Of a stretch of 64,000 nucleotides of DNA, positions 31,300 to 61,590 are shown one piece after another (position 1 is the first letter of the stretch; every line of letters begins with the position of its first letter). This DNA comes from Eledone cirrhosa (Eukaryota). The position numbers and the translations under genes were made by a program. Where the stretch lies: NCBI GenBank assembly GCA_964016885.1, contig OZ024741.1, positions 194,618,001 to 194,682,000 of the forward strand, given 5' to 3'. Below the pieces are notes generated by a model. It searched no databases. It saw nothing but the letters and a program-made list of their open reading frames with translations, and was not told where the DNA came from.

Positions 31300-34165
31300 A
31301 ATTCCAATGCTAACTCTTTACCATTGGTCGCTGCCAGCCCCCCCTCCCCCACCTGACTGTGCTCTCTGTGCCTGCACTAGCTGGTACCTAAAGACAATTA
31401 AATATCACGTGTGCTACCAAAACTACCACAGGAGCTGTGTCGACATCACCAAGGCTCAAGCTGAAAGGCTTCAATACTGGACCTGTAATTAGTGCCACTT
31501 TAGCTCCGACGTTCTCCATGGAGACATCCCATGCTTCAATGACCAGCTCTCTACTGAGGACTTTGCTGCAGCCCTCCAGGGTTTATCAAAATCGAAACTA
31601 ATCAACCGGATCCCTAAGGGAGCTCGGAATAGCTTTGCACCTGCCCTCTTCAATTTATTGAAAAACGTTTGTTTATCTAACAATATGTCTGGCTGGCAGA
31701 AACTGTTTTTTGTTTCCTCTCATCTCTCTTCACGTACACAATGTAAAATCTGGCTCCTTGATGTCTTCTCTCAAGCGGCAGTTCCAGCTGTTTGAGTCCA
31801 CCCCAACCACTTCTCACCTGAGTTTGACATCGAACTTGGTGCCTACTGACAGGCAACCAATTAACCTTCAGAAAATTTGACATTGATGGAGCTGTCTGTC
31901 TCCTCTCTTCTCTGTCCTCCCTTGCTCTGTGCAACCCTGATTCTCTTGAGCAACTGAAAGAGAAGCACCCATCAGCAGCCCCAGATGATAGGTTACACTG
32001 GCCTGAACCACCAGAATACTCGAGACCGGTCTACACCACTGATAAAATGAGAAAAGCGATTTCATCCTCCCCCGCTGGTTCTGATGTGGGAATTGATGGT
32101 CTACAACCTCAAAACCTGAAGTATGGTATCTCCTTATCAGTCGGACTTGAGCTCTTGTAGAGTCTGACTCAGTTTATGAATCAGTTCTCTTTGGTCCGAA
32201 ATTATTTGGTTTCACTAAACCCAATGGAGACCTACGCATCATTGCGGTTGGTTACACCCTTCGTCGTCTTACTGCGAAGGTGTGTTTGTTATCGGTCTCT
32301 GACTCACTGGTGGAGGAATTTCCCCCCATCCAGTTAGGAAAGCCATTACCAACATGCCTTCCATATCCCCCAGGGTCATCCTCAAACTTGACCTTAAGAA
32401 CGCCCTCAACTCCGTCAACTGTGATATCGTCCTCAGCTCAGTAAGGGAGAGGGTCCCACAACTCTACCATTTTACTTGGCAAGCTTATTGGGGGCCCTCC
32501 AACCTCTCTTTTGGTGTTCAAATCATCATTTCTGCCTCAGGAGTTCAACAAGGTGATCCACTCGGGTCCACCCTGTTTGCACTGGGTACTGATAACATCA
32601 CCAAGATGCAGGTTAAGTTGAACCTCAACATCTGGTATCTCAATGACGCCTGTTTGGGGGGGACCTCCAGATAAGGTTCTCGCCGCTGCTAACAAAATGG
32701 TTGAGGAGCTTGGTTGTCGGGGTCTCCAGGTCAATAGTTCCAAATGTGAGCTCTGGATGCTCAACTACTCGGCTTTTCAACATCAACGAACAATCAACCT
32801 GTTTAAAGAGTCCTTCCCTTCCATTGCAGTCCCTCCCCCATCGATTTGGTGCTCCTTATAAGGCCCAATTACAGACCTTGCCTTCGAGTCAATCTTCCAA
32901 TCGAAGATGGTTAGCCATGACCTGCTGCTGAAGAATATTGAAGCAATCATACCCCATCAAGGTTTTTTTCATACTCAGGAACAACCTGTCTATTCCTAAG
33001 CTTCTATATCTGCTCAGGGTCAGCCCCTCTCACAGATTTCCATCTGCCTCCAATGCTTCAACGACCTAATCTGCAAGAGACTCGAGTGCCTGGTCAATGT
33101 TAGACTCTCTCCAGAGTCCCGCGATCAGGCTGCGTTGCCCAAGCGATTTGGGGGTCTTGGTCTTCATAAATGTTCATCCCTCTCTCTCCCCTGCTTCCTT
33201 TCCTCCACCCATGCTTGCTCCTCCCTGGTGAGCAGCATCCTCTCCTCTCCAACATGGACTAGTTCCAACAGGGAGTTAGATGAATCTCTCCAGCAATGGA
33301 GTGAGTTGGGTTTGTCTGTTCCTGAGAAGGTGGAGGACAGTTGAAGTCAGAGAGCTTGGGACAGCATACATTCGAGGGTCACCTTTGACTCCCTCTTCGA
33401 CCAGTCAGATCAGTTTTCAAGGTGCCGCTTACTGTCTGCTAGCGCCAAATACTCAGGTGACTGGGTTAATGCCCTACCAGTGGCTAACGTTAGTGGCCTA
33501 CTCGGCTTGGACGAACTTCATGTCTCTATTGCCCTCAGAGTGGAAGCTGACATCTGTACGAGTTTGAGGTGTCGATGTGACAAATTCCTTGACTCCACAG
33601 TCTTTCTTGCCGCCTGTGCGTTACTTATTCTCAAGAGAGCTTTGGCCCGGGCAACCATCCCCTGAATCTTGGAACCATCTAGGTTGTCCAGAAGTGATGG
33701 GAAAAGACCTGACAGCTTTACCTTCTGCCCCTGGTTGAGAGGCAGATGCCTTGTCTGGGACTTCACAGTTAGTGACTCTTTTGGTTCTTCCCACATCCTG
33801 GATGCTGCGGTTAGGGCGAGAGTCACAGCTTCCGCAGCCGAACGGAACAAAATCCTAAAACACTGTGATCTGTCGGCCAACTACATCTTCCAGCCTGTGA
33901 CGTTCGGGGGAGTCGGGCTACTGACTGCGACATTCCTATCTTCACTGGCACCTTGCCTAATAAAGGTAACTGGTGAAGCTCGTGGGGGTGCTTGGTTGTT
34001 CCAGCGCATCAACCTAGCCATCACCCGAGGCAACGCTGCGAGCGTGCTGGCTTGCCTCAAAAATCATTAGAGAGGTTTCCCAGTGTTCCTCGCGATACTG
34101 TTATCTTTTACTCTGGTAGCGGCTCGGTTGTCCACCCCTTTCGCCTGCCTTTTGTGGTACGTGGT
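31300..34165 (+). mobile_element. CRE-clade non-LTR retrotransposon (PHD-like finger, RT, RLE), decayed
   Basis: LKLDLKNA, GVQQGDPLG, WYLND, GGLGL, EPSRLSRSDGKRPD, WDFTV and QRINLAITRGNA motifs. Confidence 0.9.
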
Positions 34166-50379: not shown

Positions 50380-50450
<71 letters not shown>

Positions 50451-50525
50451 CGAACGAAATGTATAAGGAACCAGATGGACCATAACGCACCAAAGTACTC
50501 AATACTTAGGGTAGTAGAGTGGGTA

Positions 50526-50643
50526 ATAGGAACGAGTAGGACCTCGACGGCTGAGCTCAAGCCGTTTCGACGGCTAATTCTGAACCCAATCCAGAATTAG
50601 CCGTCGAAACGGCTTGAGCTCAGCCGTCGGGGTCTTACTCGTT

Positions 50644-50648
<5 letters not shown>
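50526..50648. repeat. 57-bp inverted repeat (9-nt loop) containing the 3' half of a hammerhead ribozyme
   Basis: Arms 50526-50582 and 50592-50648 differ at 2 positions; contains GAAAC-GGCT-loop-AGCC-GTC. Confidence 0.9.
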
Positions 50649-50725
<77 letters not shown>

Positions 50726-51084
50726 ATGTAGAAAGGATAACACACTAGAGGGAGAGAGTGTGTGCGATCGATAAACAGGGAAACCACCAGTGTATGGAAT
50801 CTATAAACTACGGAAGGTGAAGTAGACACAATAATTAAAAATATAAATCAAAATGAATATACCCACCTCTATATCAAATAACATTACAAAGCGTTTGCAA
50901 TTCTTTCAGAATGAAAATATAAACAAAGCATATAAATAAATTTACAATAGAATAACATAACAAATATGTTTTAAATATATACATAAATAACATTACAAAT
51001 GCTGAGATAACATTATAAATAGCTCGCGATTCATTCAGAAAGATATATTCCTTTAATGCTACAATATTAAAGAAAATGTAAAGG

Positions 51085-53170
51085 AAAGGGTGAACAATCG
51101 AGCCAACACCAGAGCAAAAGACATGAACGTCGCGAGGAGTACTGGGCAACCTCTCTAATGATTTTTGAGGCAAGCCAGCACACTGGTAGCGTTACCTCGG
51201 GTGATGGCGAGGCTGATGCCCTGAAACAGCCAAGCGCCCTCACGAGATTCGTCAGTTACCTCTATTAGGCGAGCCGCCAGTGAAGAGATGAAACTCGCAG
51301 TCAGCGCCCCGACTCCCCCAAACGTCTTGAAAGCCACAGACTGAAAAATGTAGCTGGCCGATAGATCAGAGTATTTGAGGGTCTTACTCCGCTCGGCTGC
51401 GGAAGCTGGGGCGCTCGTGATAACCGCAGCATCCAGGATGTGGGAAAGCGCAAAAGAGTCACTAACAGTGACGTCCCAGAAAAGGCACCTGCCTCTCGAC
51501 CAGGGGCACAGGGTAAGGCCGTCAGGTCTTTTGCGGTCACTTCTGGACAACCCAGATGGTTCCAAGACTGAAGGGATATTCGCCCGCGCCAAAGCTCTCT
51601 TCAGAATGAGGTTTAGCTCCGTGTGACGCGCGAAGCGGCCGGCATTCAGGCGGAAAGAAAGACCGTGGAGGCTTGTGGAGTCGAGGAGTTTGCCGCATCG
51701 GCACCTCAAACCCATGCAGACGTCAGCTCCCACTCTGAGGGCGATGGAGACACGAAGTTCGTCCAGGCTGAGTAGGCCACCAACGTTAGCCACGGGTAGG
51801 GCATCAACCCAGTCGCCTGAATATTTGGCGCTGGCAGATAGTAAGCGGCACCTTGCAAACTGATCTGACTAGACGAAGAGGGAGTCAAAGGTGGCCTTCG
51901 AACTTATGCTGTCTCAAGTTCTCTGACTTCGACTGTCCTCCACCTTTTCAGGAACAGACAAGCCCAACTCACTCCATTTCTGGAGAGCTTCACCCAACTC
52001 ACTGTTGGAACTAGTCCATGTTGGAGTGGAGAGGATACTGCTAACCAGGGTGGAGCAAGCGTAGGTGGAGAAAAGGAAGGAGGAGAGAGAGAGGGACGAA
52101 CACTTACGAAGACCAAGACCCCGAAATCGCTTGGGTAACGCAGCCTTATCGCGGGACTCTGGAGAGAGTCTAACATTGACCAGGCACACGAGTCTCTCGA
52201 AGATTAGGTCGTCGAAGCGTTGGCGGCAGGACGGAAATCTGTGAGAGAGGCTGACCCTGAGCAGATACAGAAGCTTAGGAATAGAGAGGTTGTTCCTGAG
52301 TATGAAGAGACCTTGATGGGGTTCGATACCTTCGATATTCCTCAGCAGCTGCTCAAGGCCCACCATCTTCGATTGGAAGGTTGACTCGAAGGCCAGGCCT
52401 GTAATTGGGGCTTATAAGGAGCACCAAATCGATGGGGGAGGGACTGCAATGGAAGGGAAGGACTCTTTAAACAGGTCGATTAGCTGTTGGTGTTGAGAAG
52501 CCGGGTGGTTGAGGATCCAGAACTCACATTTGGAGCTATTGACCTGGAGACCCAGGCGGCCAAGCTCCTCAACCATCTTGTTGACAGTGGCGAGAACCAT
52601 ATCCGGAGTTCCCTCCAAACAGGCGTCGTCGAGGTACCAGGTATTGAGGTCCAACTCAACCCCCATATTGGTGACGTCATCAATGTCCAGTGCAAACAGA
52701 GCGTGCCCGAGTGGGTCACCCTGTTGGACTCCTGAGGCAGAGGTGATGATTTGGTCACCGAAAGAGAGGTAGGAGGGCTCCCGATAAGCCTGCCAAGCAA
52801 AGTGGTAGAGTTGTGGGACCCTCTCTTTTACTGAGCCGAGGACGATGTCGCGGCTGACGGAGTTAAATGCATACTTGAGGTCAAGTTTGAGGATGACCTT
52901 GGGGGGCGAGGAGTGCAAGTTGGTAAATGCTCTGGTAGCGTGGACAGCAGTCTCACATCCCAACTTGGTACCCACCCCCAGCTGGATGGGGGAAAATTCC
53001 TCCGCCAATGAGTCGGAGACCAACAGCAAACACGCCTTTGCAGTGAGGCGGCGAAGGGTGCAGCCAACCGCAATGGGGCGCAGGTCCCCGTTGGACTTGA
53101 TGAGACCAAATGCTTCGCTCCGAAGAACAGTGGGCTGATGAACGGGAGAACGTTCACTGAAGAGAACAGC
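51085..53170 (-). mobile_element. CRE-clade retrotransposon, 5'-truncated, best-preserved copy
   Basis: LRPIAVG, GVQQGDPLG, WYLDD, RHTELN..EPSGL..RPDGLT..PW..WDVTV motifs. Confidence 0.93.
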
Positions 53171-53492: not shown

Positions 53493-53746
53493 CGTGTGTA
53501 ATATATAGTTATAGAGGTGGGTATATTCATTTTGATTTATATTTTTAATTATTATGTGTCTACCTCACCTTCCGTAGTTTATAGATTCCATACACTGGTG
53601 GTTTCCTTGTTTATTAATCTCACACCCTCTCTCCCTCTAGTGTGTTATCCTGTCTACATATTGTATTTTGAAGAGCCCAGGATTCCTTTTCCTTTGAGCA
53701 CATCATTTACAGAGATTAACGCAAGTCTATTGACTCCGTTAATATT

Positions 53747-53858
<112 letters not shown>

Positions 53859-54143
53859 TTATTATACAAAGCATATAAGTAAATTTTCAGTAGAATAACA
53901 TAACAAATATGCTTTAAATATATACATAAATAACATTACAAATGCAAAGATAACATTATAAATTGTTTGCGATTCTTGATTCTTTCAGAAGGATATATTC
54001 TTTTAATGTTGCAATATTAAAGAAAATGAAAAGGAAGGGGTGAACAACCGAGCCAACACCAGAGCAACGTCGCGAGAAGTACCAGGCAATCACTCTAATG
54101 ACTTTTGAGGCAAGCCAGCACACTTGTAGCGTTGCCTCGGGTG

Positions 54144-55500
54144 TTGTATATATAGATAGGCAGAACAACTTTGATATCACAATGGGATCATCTGACCCAG
54201 CGCAAGTAACAGACCTCGTTGGAATATTTATTCTTAACGTATTACATAGAAAATTGCCGGAGATTGCCGGAGGTTTATATCGCGACGATGCTCTATTTAT
54301 AGTTGAAAAACATAGCAATAGTGAACTTAGTAGGAAAAAGAAATTTTTAATAGAATTTTAATAGAATTTTTTAATAATTATAACCTTAAATTAGAAATTG
54401 AAAATGATAATAAAATTGTTAATTTCTTAGATATTACTTTAAACTCAGGCCTATATTACCCTTTCCATAAGATTAAGGAAAACCTGAACTACGTAAGCTT
54501 CCATTCTAACCACCCTAGAAATGTCAAAAATGCTATTGTCAATAGCGTCCAGCAAAGAATATCACGCATTTCAGCTAATAAAAATATATTTGATAACAAA
54601 ACAGAATATTACAACGATGCTTTACACAGAGCTGGTTACATGAATAAAATTAAATACATAGATAAAAATAGTATACAAAAAAACCTCCTAAAATTTACTA
54701 TAATATTAATAATAAGCAAATTAACCTAAATAGTAAATCAAACAAAAAAGCTAGAACTACAACTATTATTTGATATTCTCCTCCAATCTCCTTAGGAATT
54801 AAGACACCTTTAGCACATCTATTTTTCAAGGCGTTAGATAAGTGTTTTCCTAAATCCCATAGATACCACTCTATTTTTAACAGGCATACAATCAAACTCT
54901 CTTACTCTATTACTATGAATATAGCACAAAATATTAATAGAATTAATAATAGAAATTTAAAATTAAACCCAACCCAAATAAACCCTAATAGCAATAATAA
55001 TATTACTAGTAACAGTACTTATAATAATCATACCGTTCCTCTAGACAACAAGTCTAGAAAATGTAACTGCAGAAACAAATTATGTTGCCCTCTACAGAAT
55101 AATTGTCTAGATAAAAACTTAGTATACAAATGCACGATAAAAACTAGAGATAAATTATATAACTATATAGGAGTCACTTATACAAAATTTAAGGAACGCT
55201 GGTATAATCATAAACACACTAGATCGGACAAAAAATTCTCAACATCACTTTCACATTTAATTTGGTCCTTAAAAGACAATAATATTGACTATTCGATCTC
55301 TTGGAGAACGATTTCAAAAGCACTCACATACCAGAATATGGGTATCTCGAGAATTTGTCATCTCTGTATTGAAGAAATTTTTCACATAATTACCAATCCT
55401 AAGAATGTTGTAAACAAAAGAAGGAATTATTTAATTCTTGTTTGCATCGACAGTCCAAGACTTTTAAAAGTATCTATAATCTATAGAAAATATTATATAT
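54144..55500 (+). mobile_element. Penelope-like element, 5'-truncated (RT C-terminal half and GIY-YIG endonuclease)
   Basis: FDITMGS, GLYRDD, CNCR..CPL..CL..NLVYKC..YIGVT..FKERWYNH and CHLC motifs. Confidence 0.93.
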
Positions 55501-56289
55501 AGCCTCTATATCTTGCCCATTTACAATTTATATGTCTTCGCTGTTTTTTTGTGATATTTTTAATAATTTTTTGAAGGTATTTTTGATGTTTGTTGAACTT
55601 TTTTCTAATAGGCTTTATAGGTCTTTTAAATGCATACATACAAATACTTAATATCATCAAATTTATACATATGTATAAGTAATGTTATCAAAATATATAC
55701 ATAAATTTTTTATCTTAGAACATATGTAATTTATGATGCTCTAAAATCATATATAAAATAATTTTTCCATATACTACAATTAGAATATAATTTGAAAGTA
55801 AATTTGAGACTAAACGATAAATATAACTATAACTTAACTCCGTAAACTAATAATAATTAGAGTTATCTTCGCCCAACATATCATAAATCTTCATATATAA
55901 AGCTATCTATATCTAACCAAAATTATTTATCTATTAAATAAATAATATATATACTCACCAAAACTATTTATATATATACACAACTAACCTCTTATCAAAA
56001 TCTATAAAGCTCAGTGCGTGGTCATGCTCCTTCGTTATAGAAATCTACGATATAGAATTTCTTCAATTGAAATTTACAATTCAGTATTCGAAATAGTTTC
56101 GATTGCGTCTTGACACAGATAATTTTTTCAATTTCACCCACAATTACGCAAAAAATAGATAAAACTCAATATTTTACGATTTTTTTCTCTCATTTAAACT
56201 GCTGAACTCTTTCTACTACCATTCAAAATCTATACAACTTCATACTTTCTGCTACTTTCTCTTTCCAAGCTTGATGGTGATACTGTCCG

Positions 56290-57109: not shown

Positions 57110-60100
57110 CAGTCGGTACCTGAAGACAATCAAATGTCACCTGTATTGCCAAAGCTACAGCAGGAGCTGCATTGGCATCACCAAGGCTCAAATCGAAAGT
57201 CTTCAGCACTGGACTTGTAACCAGTGCCACTTTAGCGCTGACGTACTGAGTAGGAATGTCTCGCGCTTCGACGACCAGCTCTCTACCAAGGACTTTGCTG
57301 CAGCCCTCCCGGGTTTATCCAAATCGAAGCTCATCAACCTGATCCCTAAGGAGGCTCGGAATAGCTTTGCACGCGTCCTCTCCAATCTATTGAAAAGCAT
57401 TTGTTTATCCAACAATACGTCTGGCTGGCAGAAACTGTTTTTGTTCCCTCTCATCTCTCTCCACGTGCACAATGCAAAATCTAGTTCCCTCACATCCTCT
57501 CAGGCGACAGTTCCAGCTGTTTGAGTCCACCCCAACCACTTCTCACCTTAACTTGGAATCGAGCTCAGTTTCTATCAACAAGCAACCGATAAACCTAAAA
57601 CATACTGTTAATTTGACATTAAAGCGAATTTTACATTAAAGGAGCTGTCTGTCTCCTTTCTTCTCTGCCCTCCCTCGCTCCGTGTAACTCTGATTCTCTC
57701 GAGCGACTGAAAGAGAAGCACTCATCGGCCTCTCCGTATGGCCAGTTACACTGGCCCGAACCACCAGAATACTCGAGACCGGTCTACACCACTGATAACA
57801 CCAGAATTGTGATAACGACAATGTTTATTTTATAATAACAAAATTCACTTATTGGTACATTGAATATCGAGTAACAAAATCGTGACAGCAATTATCACTA
57901 CATTATTTGCTGACTAGCTACTTCGAGCTAGCGTGTATGCATGTAATAACGGAATACTCCTATGTTTTACCGGCGAAGATTTTACTGAGGTTTCTCGCCT
58001 CTGCGACATCCCATTATTGGAAAGTTCCCACCATTGTCCTGTCAAGTCAACGATGATAAACGTACATACCACTTGACCTCTGATCACAGCTTCCTAGGAA
58101 ATGATATCCATATGGCTGCTCATAAATCAACCTTATATACACATCCTTCTAACTATAGCACTATTATAAATATAAGGAGTTAAGGAATCTATCGACCAGA
58201 GAGACCGAAGTAAGCAGTCCATGTTAATGTTCACGATGTAGCAGACCTTTCACTCTATCTCTCTCCTGGGCTCACTGGTTATCACCTTCTCGGCGACAGA
58301 CACAGCCATACATGAAGCAGCAGTCCTCAAGAAGAAGAATGTATTCTAAGAATAGGCACACATACACACACACACACATAGTAAGTTCATATTGTTCACA
58401 TTCTACGCTCATTCTATTCTTCCGTATCACTGTGATATTGTAACGTCGTATTAATACATACATTCACGCTAGCTCGTAGCAGCTAGCCAGTAATAAATGT
58501 AGGGATAATTCATGTCATAAATATTATTACTCGATGTTCAAAGTGAATATTGTTGTTATAAAACAAATGTTGTTAACAACACAATCATGGCATTATTCTT
58601 TTCATCAAACACCCATCAAAGAATATCAATTATCCGCTACACATGTATCAATAAAACGATACAATAGAAGTAAAATAACAGGAAGCCGAAAGATTAGGGA
58701 AACACACAAGTAAACCTACTGCGCGCGTGTATGTGTCTATTCTTAGCATACGTAGTTGGTCAATCTGCCGAGTTGGTATGAAATGTGAGAGACTGTAAGG
58801 CCAGGAGAGAGAAAGAGTAAACGGTCTGTAGATAGTAAATGGGCTACATCGTAATCTCTCACAGACTGCTGCTTCGTAGTCTCCTCGCTGGATTCCCTAA
58901 GTACTTGTATTTATAATTGTGCTATAGTTAGAAGGATGTGTATATGGGTTGATTTAGGAGTAGCCATGTGTGTTTCATGTCAAGAACCTGGGGTCACAGG
59001 TCAAGTGGTATATACATTTATCATAGTTGTCTCTTGACAGGACAATGGTGAGAACTCCCAACTATAGGTGGTTTTAGAGGCGGGTACCCTCAGATTCGGT
59101 TTCGAATCTTCGCCAGGTAAAACATTTGAGTATTCCGTTACACATCCTTCCACGCTGGGGGAATTGACGGTCTACGACCTCAGCACCCCAGGGATGGTAT
59201 CTCCTTATCGGCCGGCGATGCCGGATTCAAGCTCTTGGAGAGTCTGACTCAGTTTGTGAACCAGTTCTCTTCAGAGAACTTCTCCCCTATATCCGTCCAG
59301 ACCTGCGCTCTGAGGCGTAACTAGGGTATGGCAAGCATGGCACGTGCCATGAGCCCCACATAAAAGGGAGCACGTTCTATTAAAGTCAAATAAGCCTTGT
59401 CGGAGAGTGAAAAAAGAAACTCCTTCAGATATATGATCTGTCTCTGATTATCATGAGTGAGAACACTGTGGTGGCTGGATCATTAAACAGTTATATAAAT
59501 ACAGAGCTGGGCAGGGTTGCAATTTCACTGCTTGTCATAGGCGCTATTTTCCTTTGTTCCCTGGGCCCCATTGGGGTTGGTTGCTCTCTTCGTCGTCTTA
59601 CTGCAAAATTGTGTTTATCGGTCTATGACTCACTGTCGAAAGAATTTTCCCCCATCCAGTTTGGGGTGGGTACCAAGCTGAGACGTGGGGCTGCTGCCCA
59701 ATACGCTACAAGAACCATTACCAACTTGCCCTCCATATCCCCCAGGGCCATCCTCAAACTTGACCTCAAGAATGCCTTCAACTCTGTCAGCTGCAATGTT
59801 GTCGCAGCTTAGTAAGAGAGAGAGGGTCCCATAACTCTACCACTTTGCTTGGTAGGCTTATCAGGGGCCCTCCAACCTCTCTTTTGGTGTTCAACTCATC
59901 TTTTCTTCCTCAGGAGTTCAACAAGGTGATCCGTTCGGGTCCGCTCTGTTTGCACTGGGCACTGATAACATCACCAAGATGGGGGTTGAGCTGGATCTAA
60001 ACATTTGGTATCTTGATGACGCTTGTTTGGGGGTTCCTATGGATAGGGTTCTCACGACTGTAAAATAAAATGGTTGAGGAGCTTGATCATCGGGGTTTCC

Positions 60101-61590
60101 TGATCAATAGCTCCAAATGTAAGCTCTGGATTTTCAACCACACAGCTTCTCAACACCAGTAGACAATAGACCTGTTTGCAGAGTCCTCCCTTTACATTGC
60201 CGTCCCATATCCGTCTACATGATGCTCCTTATGAGCCCCAATTACAGACCTTGCTTTTGAGTCAATTTTCCAATCTAAGATGGTTAGCCTTGAGCAATTA
60301 TTGAAGAACATTAAGGCAGTCGAACCCCATCAAGCTTTTTTTATATTTAGGAATTACCTATAGATTCCTTAGCTTCTATATATTTTCAAGGTTAGCCCAT
60401 CTCACAGATTTTCGTCATATGTCCAACGCTTTGACGAACTAATCTTCGAGAGACTCTAGTGCTTGGTCGATGTCAGACTCTCTCCAGAGTCCCGTGATCA
60501 GGCTGCGTTTCCCAAGCGAATTGGAGGCCTTGATCTACGTAAATGCTCGTCCCTCTCTCTCTCTCCATTGCTTCTTTTCCTCCATCCATGCTTGCTCCAC
60601 TTTGGTGAACAACTTCCTCTCCTTTCCAACATGGACTAGTTCCAACAGGGAGTTTGATGAAGCTCTTTTACGGCGGAGAGAGTTGGGTTTGTCTGTTCCT
60701 GAGAAGGTAGAGGACAAATGGAGATAGAGAGCTTGGGACAACATACATTTGAAGGCCATCTTTGATTCTCTCTTCGACCAGTCAGATCAGTTCTCAAGGT
60801 GCCGCTTACTGTCTGCTAGCATCAAATCCTCAGATGACTGGGTTGATGCCCCACCTGTGGCTAACATTAGTGGCCTACTCAGCTTGGAAGAGCTTCGTGT
60901 TTCCAATATCCTCAGAGTGGGAGCCGATGTCTATACGGGTCTGACATGTTGGTGTGGTAGGCTCCTCGACCCCACAGGCTTTCACGGTCTTTCTTGCCGC
61001 CTGAATGCCGGTCGCTTCGCGCGGCACACTGAAATAAACCTTATCATCAAGAGAGCTTTGACCCGGGAAAACATCTCCCCAATTTTGGAACCGTCTGGGT
61101 TATCCAGAATTGATGGGAAAAGGCCTGACGGTCTTACCCAGTGCCCCTGGATAAGAGGCATGTGTCTTATCTGGGATGTCACAGTTAGTGACTCTTTTGC
61201 TTCTCCCCACATTCTGGATGCTACAGTTAGGGGCGAGAGCTACAGCTTCCGTAGCCGAACGGAACAAAATCACGAAATACCGTGATTTGTCGGTTAACTA
61301 AATTTTCCAGCCTGTGGCGTTCGAGACGTTTGGAAAAGTTGGGCCGCTAACTGCGGAGTTCTTGTCTTCACTGGTGGCTCGCCTAACCGAGGTAACAGGT
61401 GAAGTTCGTGAGGACACTTGGTTGTTCCAGCGCACTAGACTCGCCATCGCCCGAGGTAACGCCGCGAGCGTGCAGTCTTGCCTTAAAACTTGTTAGAGAG
61501 GTTTCCCAGTGCCCCTCGCGACATCGTTATCTTTTGTTCTGGAAGTGGTTCGTTTGTCCACCCCTTTCGCCTGTCTTTTGTTGTATGTGT
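57110..61590 (+). mobile_element. Third CRE-clade copy, interrupted by insertions at about 57796-59141 and 59310-59565
   Basis: Colinear with 31380-34160, including the PHD-like finger, RT and RLE (RHTEIN..GKRPDGLT..WDVTV). Confidence 0.9.
59310..59565. mobile_element. hAT-like MITE inserted in CRE
   Basis: GGCGTAACTAGGG..TATGGCAAGCA at the left with degenerate inverted TGCTTGTCATA..TTCCTTTGTT at the right. Confidence 0.5.

What the first reader, a model, noticed from the sequence alone, without database searches (positions are those of the whole stretch)
50449..50648. Hammerhead ribozyme turned into a fold-back hairpin
Seen: a 57-bp inverted repeat between two (TA)n tracts. Its centre is a stem II-like hairpin (GACGGCTAATTCTG/CAGAATTAGCCGTC) followed by GAAAC, a stem III (GGCT/AGCC) and a GTC triplet. 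The CUGANGA side is replaced by an inverted copy of the 3' side. Both arm mismatches are G-U compatible on the plus strand. Established: Penelope-like elements carry hammerheads in their terminal repeats and often have inverted 5' ends. Inference: cDNA self-primed at stem II, leaving two half-ribozymes that might be cleaved in trans or yield hairpin siRNA near the putative gene 5' end.
Basis: partly seen in the sequence, partly recalled or inferred. Interest (0 to 1): 0.7.

Follow-up and report, generated by a model that had tools for sequence, protein, structure and literature searches.

The report
Head-to-head Penelope stub with half hammerhead
This 196-letter DNA hairpin in a TA repeat is one of many thousands of very short, back-to-back copies of a Penelope-type jumping gene; it likely formed when both ends of the cut DNA each copied the same RNA up to its start, which likely lies in the middle of a hammerhead ribozyme motif, so it is an ordinary insertion scar that records how these elements copy themselves.

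Summary
The 57-bp inverted repeat is real. It is not a MITE and not a ribozyme turned into a switch. It is a stub of a (TA)n-targeting, Hydra-type Penelope-like retrotransposon: 22,161 exact tail matches and 7,983 exact fold-back centres in this genome. Long siblings encode RT plus GIY-YIG endonuclease and keep the missing 5' half of the hammerhead. Its core is the published U3-A8 variant (or C3·A8), not CUGANGA.

One arm starts at a fixed site and the other 80 nt further on (the tail). Joints differ in 53 of 56 copies and either arm can be the longer, which argues against snap-back at stem II. Arms pile up 52-67 nt upstream of the first site. In 8 of 28 compound loci the copy stops at or before that point and jumps into the leader or ORF; none passes it. 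Best reading (inferred): two target ends prime on one RNA, run off its 5' end inside loop II, and are end-joined. No RNA data were available. The scan reached this reading before on other DNA of this genome.

The parts
50386..50449 (.). (TA)32 tract, target DNA on the tail side
   Evidence: the tail end abuts TA exactly in 185 of 234 tail arms scored, 18 more run on into the element's leader
50450..50528 (-). Tail of the element (79 nt here, 80 in the family): the stretch between the two fixed insertion ends
   Evidence: 22,161 exact matches to its first 35 nt in G000
50497..50520 (-). Possible bulged hairpin (4 bp, 2-nt bulge, 3 bp) starting 9 nt after the first fixed site; a similar one starts 7 nt after the second site in tandem copies
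   Evidence: read from sequence; the second is the predicted fold, the first is not; lead from earlier notes; function untested
50529..50585 (-). Tail-bearing arm: last 54-57 nt of the pseudo-LTR, carrying the 3' half of the hammerhead motif (GAAAC at 50568-50564, GTC at 50548-50546)
   Evidence: 90% identity over 134 nt to parent arm of L112
50586..50589 (.). Junction, 4 nt not found in the parent (7 nt on a strict reading, 50583-50589)
   Evidence: 53 distinct junctions among 56 sibling copies
50590..50645 (+). Tail-less arm: last 56 nt of the pseudo-LTR in inverted position, ending at the first fixed site
   Evidence: 183 of 214 tail-less arms end exactly there
50595..50633 (+). 3' half of a type I hammerhead motif: stem II 3' strand, GAAAC, stem III with palindromic loop, GTC (predicted cut after 50628), stem I 3' strand
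   Evidence: no Rfam match; cleavage untested
50646..50721 (.). (TA)38 tract, target DNA on the tail-less side

Best explanation
The unit is a 5'-truncated, head-to-head insertion of a Hydra-type Penelope-like retrotransposon in a TA repeat, likely made when both ends of the cut DNA primed reverse transcription on one element RNA, ran off its 5' end inside loop II of the hammerhead motif, and were joined. Shown: the parent family and its RT-endonuclease ORF; two fixed insertion ends 80 nt apart, each followed by TAT in the template; variable joints; a pile-up of arm ends at 52-67 nt; arms that are short together or long together; compound copies that jump at this point. Inferred: the endonuclease cuts (TA)n on both strands; one DNA end pairs with UAU at the first site, the other at the second; the RNA begins about 58-62 nt upstream of the first site, probably at an internal promoter; the two cDNA ends are trimmed and end-joined. 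Long copies would come from RNA with no end at that point (read-through of tandem copies, or a circle). The stub holds only half a ribozyme, is predicted to be locked in a 57-bp stem, and likely has no function of its own.
For: Parent: 10 fetched loci with the 5' half on both strands all hold RT and/or endonuclease reading frames between inverted ends; in 8 one end has the tail, L112 has a 710-aa ORF; 402 homologues at E<=1e-20 among 7,996 scored. Ribozyme, tail and ATG (+174) are contiguous in partial tandems. Fixed ends: 183 of 214 and 185 of 234; tail on exactly one side in 14 of 15 centre-selected hairpins by motif, the 15th by eye. Two separately made arms: tail arm longer 21, tail-less longer 13, equal 22 of 56; tail-less longer in 5 of 10 long loci, e.g. 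L116 about 3.4 kb against 0.2 kb. One RNA: arms share the subfamily type in 97 of 107 hairpins, 31% expected. Pile-up: 86 of 100 arms <=66 nt (the pattern needed 30 nt of arm); 56 of 100 at 52-67 in a tail-only sample; reach 63 at most in 56 resolved joints. Length is shared by both arms: short with short 74, short with long 1, long with long 8, long with short 0, 17 unresolved or without partner (Fisher p=2e-9 on the earlier tally 75/1/0/7). Jumps: 8 of 28 distinct loci, first pieces from -61,-17,-58,-58,-57,-54,-62,-43, continuing from +155 to +918; none passes -62. Published: two RT start sites bound the tail on both strands in vitro (PMC11167929); Penelope has an internal promoter (PMC2377424).
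Against: No transcript evidence: the RNA 5' end is inferred from DNA ends alone. Copies that hold the whole ORF do not pile up at -62: 0 of 15 and 0 of 14 (samples overlap) stop there, so a second kind of RNA must be assumed. No clear extra G from a cap: base at -59 in 165 short arms is T 74, C 43, G 29, A 19. The stop zone also coincides with the top of a predicted 7-bp stem in loop II. 31 of 100 tail arms are shorter than 52 nt, explained here only by trimming. A few hairpins have arms of two subfamilies (L134, L035), so one RNA is not the rule without exception. All samples are the first hits on contig C1 or best BLAST hits, biased to young copies.
Confidence: 0.65

Rival explanations
1. 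Self-propagating non-autonomous hairpin: transcripts of existing stubs serve as templates, and copying stalls at the tip of the 57-bp RNA stem, so length is kept while the joint is remade each time.
For: Stubs outnumber ORF-bearing copies by far. Some joints hold short nested copies of arm sequence (L136, L147, L154, L164, L275) that could be read-through of a parent joint.
Against: Short forms carry the diagnostic bases of each long subfamily. Jump loci show the same limit on RNA that contains leader and ORF, which stubs lack. Nested patches are also typical of polymerase-theta end joining (recalled knowledge).
Confidence: 0.14
2. Two primed cDNAs as in the best explanation, but they stop because RT stalls at the top of the extended stem II, not at an RNA end.
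For: A 7-bp stem with its 3' strand at -61 to -55 is predicted in several subfamilies; stops are spread over about 10 nt.
Against: The same sequence is passed by 14 of 14 whole-ORF copies, and arm lengths are tied within an insertion, which an independent stall per arm would not give.
Confidence: 0.11
3. One reading: one cDNA folds back on itself at stem II and primes the inverted arm.
For: Palindromic centres exist in some copies. Self-priming was proposed in print for Penelope palindromes (PMC3846280). Arms mostly share variants.
Against: A fold-back copy cannot be longer than its template, yet the tail-less arm is longer in 13 of 56 and 5 of 10 copies. It would copy through the tail, yet the inverted arm ends at a fixed site before it in 183 of 214. 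Loop II and the stem II 5' strand are not kept at the joints.
Confidence: 0.08
4. TA-targeting MITE or fold-back DNA transposon with the arms as terminal inverted repeats.
For: About 8,000 short inverted-repeat units between TA tracts.
Against: The repeats are not at both termini (one-sided tail), the centre differs in nearly every copy, and the same ends flank RT-endonuclease ORFs.
Confidence: 0.02

Closest known systems
Hydra clade of Penelope-like elements (Craig et al. 2021, PMC8557442; passages, section 11, supplement part 2 and search hits seen), e.g. Hydra-1_Obim, Penelope-13_HM
   Same: C-terminal GIY-YIG, DKT, CxCX5C linker, no CCHH, CxxC and CxH beside E and N, (TA)n target, hammerhead near the 3' end, inverted 5'-truncated copy and one-sided tail
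   Different: Core is U3-A8 or C3·A8, whereas the Hydra rows in their File S2 list CTGANGA cores; loop II about 35 nt; unit about 3.6 kb with a 1.3-kb 3' UTR; tail 80 nt against the 30-40 bp given for PLEs; most copies are ~200-bp hairpins. Not Hydra-1_Obim (different ribozyme; family motif absent from the supplement)
U3-A8 minimal hammerheads of Cercyon PLEs (Cervera and De la Pena 2014, PMC4209133; parts 1-2 of 4 read)
   Same: U3-A8 core pair, G10.1-C11.1, 5-bp helix I, palindromic loop 3, position in the pseudo-LTR; dual motifs on opposite strands were noted there too
   Different: Here helix III is 5-6 bp with a longer loop, helix II is long and interrupted, and one abundant subfamily has C3·A8 unpaired
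Poseidon_Ac in vitro: two internal RT start sites bounding the tail (Frangieh et al. 2024, PMC11167929; parts 1-2 of 4 read)
   Same: Two fixed ends near the 5' part of the transcript, both DNA strands cut and extended, ribozyme not needed for insertion
   Different: There priming is without homology; here both sites are followed by TAT matching the target. That paper does not describe joining of the two cDNAs or a stop upstream
Penelope palindromes of Adineta vaga, self-priming model (Arkhipova et al. 2013, PMC3846280; passages seen)
   Same: Head-to-head inverted pLTRs, palindromic junctions, tail on one side
   Different: Arm-length symmetry and the fixed tail-less end here favour two primers over self-priming
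L1 twin priming (recalled; not read here)
   Same: Both target strands prime on one RNA and give an inversion
   Different: In L1 the two pieces copy different parts of the RNA; here both copy the same 55-62 nt

Membership tests
Penelope-like elements (EN+) | Single ORF with RT and C-terminal GIY-YIG endonuclease in the parent | tested here: met
   L112 710 aa with YRDD and a IY..YIG motif read by eye; 402 homologues, many with PF26215. Pfam itself gave no hit on L112 or L113
Penelope-like elements (EN+) | Partial tandems forming pseudo-LTRs | tested here: met
   3' region with ribozyme and tail runs into leader and ATG (59 exact matches, 99)
Penelope-like elements (EN+) | Inverted 5'-truncated copy and one-sided tail | tested here: met
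Hydra clade | DKT, CxCX5C linker, no CCHH, CxxC and CxH around E and N, RWK | tested here: met
   Read in the L112 ORF against the definition; RWK appears as RWR
Hydra clade | Insertion into (TA)n | tested here: met
Hydra clade | Canonical CUGANGA hammerhead and length under 3 kb (described as usual, not strict) | tested here: not met
   Core U3-A8 57, C3·A8 32, U3·G8 1 of 90 arms; unit about 3.6 kb
Hydra clade | Placement in an RT tree with reference Hydra proteins | not tested
   Reference sequences could be read in the supplement but were not available to the alignment tools
Type I hammerhead ribozyme (parent motif) | Core boxes, free N7, G10.1-C11.1, A15.1-U16.1, H17, helices I-III | tested here: met
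   N7 is G 67, T 11, A 6, C 6 of 90; hammerhead fold lies 0.8 to 4.1 kcal/mol above the minimum in 4 parents; 4,983 matches to a spaced U3-A8 pattern, 1 in the reversed control
Type I hammerhead ribozyme (parent motif) | Compensatory changes in stems; Rfam model match | tested here: inconclusive
   Stems are nearly invariant, no two-sided change seen; no Rfam hammerhead hit
Type I hammerhead ribozyme (parent motif) | Self-cleavage after GUC | not testable with these tools
   No peak of arm ends at the predicted cut (-17): 5 of 100 at 14-19
Hammerhead ribozyme (the window copy itself) | Both halves of the core present | tested here: not met
   5' half absent; arms pair fully with each other
MITE | Inverted repeats at both termini and a constant interior | tested here: not met
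   One-sided 80-nt tail; 53 distinct centres in 56 copies
Non-LTR retrozyme (bioRxiv 10.64898/2026.07.22.740005, part 1 of 5 read) | Tandem units, each with a complete type I hammerhead | tested here: not met
   Single inverted unit with half motifs

The most novel reading that the evidence does not exclude
Hydra-type Penelope elements copy like a two-primer version of retroviral strong-stop synthesis: both ends of a cut TA repeat start at two fixed sites near the RNA's 5' end, run off at a transcription start that splits the hammerhead in two, and then either join head to head (the ~200-bp hairpins) or jump to another place on the RNA (the compound and tandem copies). This one cycle would explain the tail, the inverted 5' end and the pseudo-LTR, and shows that the sense strand is the template.
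Probability: 0.55. Interest if true: 0.7.

Novelty: new member of a known kind. Interest (0 to 1): 0.45.

Why it matters
The copy itself is ordinary. The family is useful because how Penelope-like elements make their inverted ends, tails and pseudo-LTRs is still open in print (PMC8557442 names it as the next task; PMC11167929 leaves the later steps unvalidated). Over 20,000 copies give sharp predictions: where the RNA starts, where RT starts, and that two cDNAs are joined. A large subfamily with an unpaired C3·A8 core also bears on whether the ribozyme is needed. Practically, such stubs will be mis-annotated as MITEs or microRNA hairpins (one search lists only such chance matches).

Tried and rejected
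Canonical CUGANGA sibling directly before stem II: 0 hits. A looser pattern gave 55 hits; the 20 that I read were joints, chimeras or chance, none an intact ribozyme. Rfam: no hammerhead match in window or parents. Pfam: nothing on the parent ORF. My first clade call, Neptune, was wrong; the motifs fit Hydra. Cap-derived G at the arm ends: inconclusive. A second stop class at the predicted cut site: suggested by L321, L341, L033, L055, not supported in 100 tail-anchored copies (one search was a first try whose ungapped method failed on older subfamilies and is not used). One diverged pattern hit (L316) showed no family context and was treated as chance. Trans-cleavage: no predicted gain. G-U bias: none. 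The Penelope fragment at 54044-55502 is not the parent (33-45% amino-acid identity). Coordinates assumed a 77-nt tail and are 3 too large; one search replaces them. Literature: searches showed no paper on two-primer joining or an RNA start inside the ribozyme for PLEs; listings only, and most subscription papers are not held. Loci L166-L185 (selected for G8) were left out.

Full report
Observation. The inverted repeat is as described: arms 50526-50582 and 50592-50648, 96% complementary, between TA tracts at 50386-50449 and 50646-50721, folding at z = -17.9. The unit is 50450-50645, 196 bp. Rfam lists only microRNA-type chance matches below their thresholds.

It is one of many. The window lies in a 3.0-Gb genome, G000. 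A search with the arm found 1,628 candidates. All 30 arm-selected loci had the same plan: TA tract, tail, arm, joint, inverted arm, TA tract. Exact patterns give 7,983 fold-back centres, 9,817 arm-tail junctions and 22,161 tails; these are lower bounds.

The parent. Some siblings extend past the joint and carry a 5-bp helix I strand, a YTGANAAG box and a stem II strand; this motif has 3,414 exact matches. Among the first 100, 50 form 25 head-to-head pairs 0.2-5.4 kb apart. Ten such pairs were fetched; they enclose reading frames for RT and a C-terminal endonuclease, 710 aa in L112. Pfam did not score this protein; a sequence search found 402 homologues, unnamed but for one uncharacterised protein. 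Its motifs match the published Hydra clade: DKT, CxCX5C linker, no CCHH, CxxC and CxH beside the catalytic E and N, TA target. The Hydra lead came from earlier scan notes and corrected my first guess. No tree was built. In partial tandems the ribozyme motif, the 80-nt tail and the ATG (+174) are contiguous, the standard pseudo-LTR layout.

The ribozyme. The family core is U3-A8 in 57 and C3·A8 in 32 of 90 arms; N7 takes all four bases. U3-A8 is published for Cercyon elements (PMC4209133). The hammerhead fold lies within 0.8-4.1 kcal/mol of the minimum. The stems show no two-sided change, Rfam does not detect it, and cleavage is untested. I put about 0.8 on its being a hammerhead by descent. 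The window copy has only the 3' half, twice, paired against itself; adding the parent's 5' half gives no predicted gain.

Two fixed ends. Tail-less arms end at one site in 183 of 214 cases; tail arms end 80 nt further on, against TA, in 185 of 234, with 18 more running into the leader. Both sites are followed by TAT in the template, which matches the target. This agrees with the two RT start sites found in vitro for Poseidon_Ac (PMC11167929).

Two arms made separately. Of 56 resolved short copies, 53 have distinct joints; the tail arm is longer in 21, the tail-less arm in 13, equal in 22. In 5 of 10 long loci the tail-less arm is the longer; in L116 it holds about 3.2 kb that the tail arm lacks, while lacking the tail. 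A single fold-back cannot give this. The arms share subfamily type in 97 of 107 hairpins against 31% by chance, so they mostly come from one RNA or one source; L134 and L035 are exceptions, and the two L261 rows are probably neighbouring stubs mis-paired.

A barrier inside the ribozyme. Of the first 100 arm-tail matches on contig C1, 86 arms are 66 nt or shorter, one is 79 and 13 are 150 or longer. In a sample chosen on the tail alone, 31 are under 52, 56 are 52-67 and 13 are longer. Short arms have short partners (74 against 1) and long arms long partners (8 against 0), with 17 unresolved or partnerless. Among 28 distinct loci where the tail runs into the leader (29 read, two the same locus; the reference left out), 8 are compound: a first piece from one fixed site back to between -17 and -62, then a jump to +155 to +918 and a second run; L317 does this twice, stopping at -61 each time. 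None passes -62. All 14 whole-ORF copies that reach -62 pass it, as do 15 of 15 in an overlapping sample. The same sequence is thus a wall in one class and open in the other, which fits two kinds of RNA better than a stall. An initiator-like sequence at -58 and -62 and a TATA-like stretch about 28 nt upstream are read by eye against recalled consensus motifs and are weak evidence; Penelope's internal promoter is published (PMC2377424). A cap-derived G was not clear, and no peak marks the predicted cut.

Mechanism. Inferred order: cut in (TA)n on both strands; each DNA end pairs with UAU at one site; both are extended to the RNA's 5' end; ends are trimmed, often gain a few bases or A runs, and are joined. 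Identity as a Penelope stub about 0.97, two primers about 0.75, RNA end as the barrier about 0.65.

Novelty. The element class, the inverted end, the tail and the U3-A8 core are in print. Eight searches showed no paper with the two-primer join or an RNA start inside the ribozyme; the library lacks most subscription papers. Earlier notes of this scan reached the same reading on other DNA of this genome, one apparently on this family; they are not independent support. No note lies at this place.

Verdict. Observation confirmed; family call right; snap-back, trans-cleavage and G-U ideas not supported; siRNA and gene effects untested. An ordinary copy of a family that is a good natural record of Penelope insertion. 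Interest 0.45.

Noticed in passing
window 51085-53111 (-), also 32204-34140 and 59560-61566: Decayed non-LTR retrotransposon with an RVT_1 match, three copies in the window at 79-82% identity. It looks like a CRE-type element with a restriction-like endonuclease; that label is recalled, not tested.
   Followed up: partly
window 50719-50873 and 53510-53666; 50920-51206 and 53863-54146: A 157-bp inverted repeat (94%) encloses that element and starts right at the TA tract beside the stub; a 294-bp direct repeat (85%) overlaps its end.
   Followed up: no
window 54044-55502 (+): Broken RT-endonuclease ORF of another Penelope-like family, 33-45% amino-acid identity to the stub's parent.
   Followed up: partly
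L047, L061, L070, L064, L074: Arms of this family abut inverted ends of a different repeat that carries a canonical CTGAAGA hammerhead core, suggesting insertions made from RNAs of two families.
   Followed up: no
L092, L115, L116, L117, L119 and others: A large subfamily has C3 opposite A8 in the core (32 of 90 arms) and still has ORF-bearing and tandem copies; the ribozyme may be dispensable.
   Followed up: partly
L134, L035: The two arms of one hairpin belong to different subfamilies (3 and 2 differences), so two RNAs can serve one insertion.
   Followed up: partly
L139, L250, L254, L279: Runs of A or T up to about 25 nt at the joints, as from stuttering on the U run at -59 to -61 or untemplated addition.
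   Followed up: no
Seen in the sequence only.
   Followed up: no
L188, L189, L190, L193 (contig C20): Four near-identical insertions with shared flanks within 60 kb: a local duplication or an assembly repeat.
   Followed up: no
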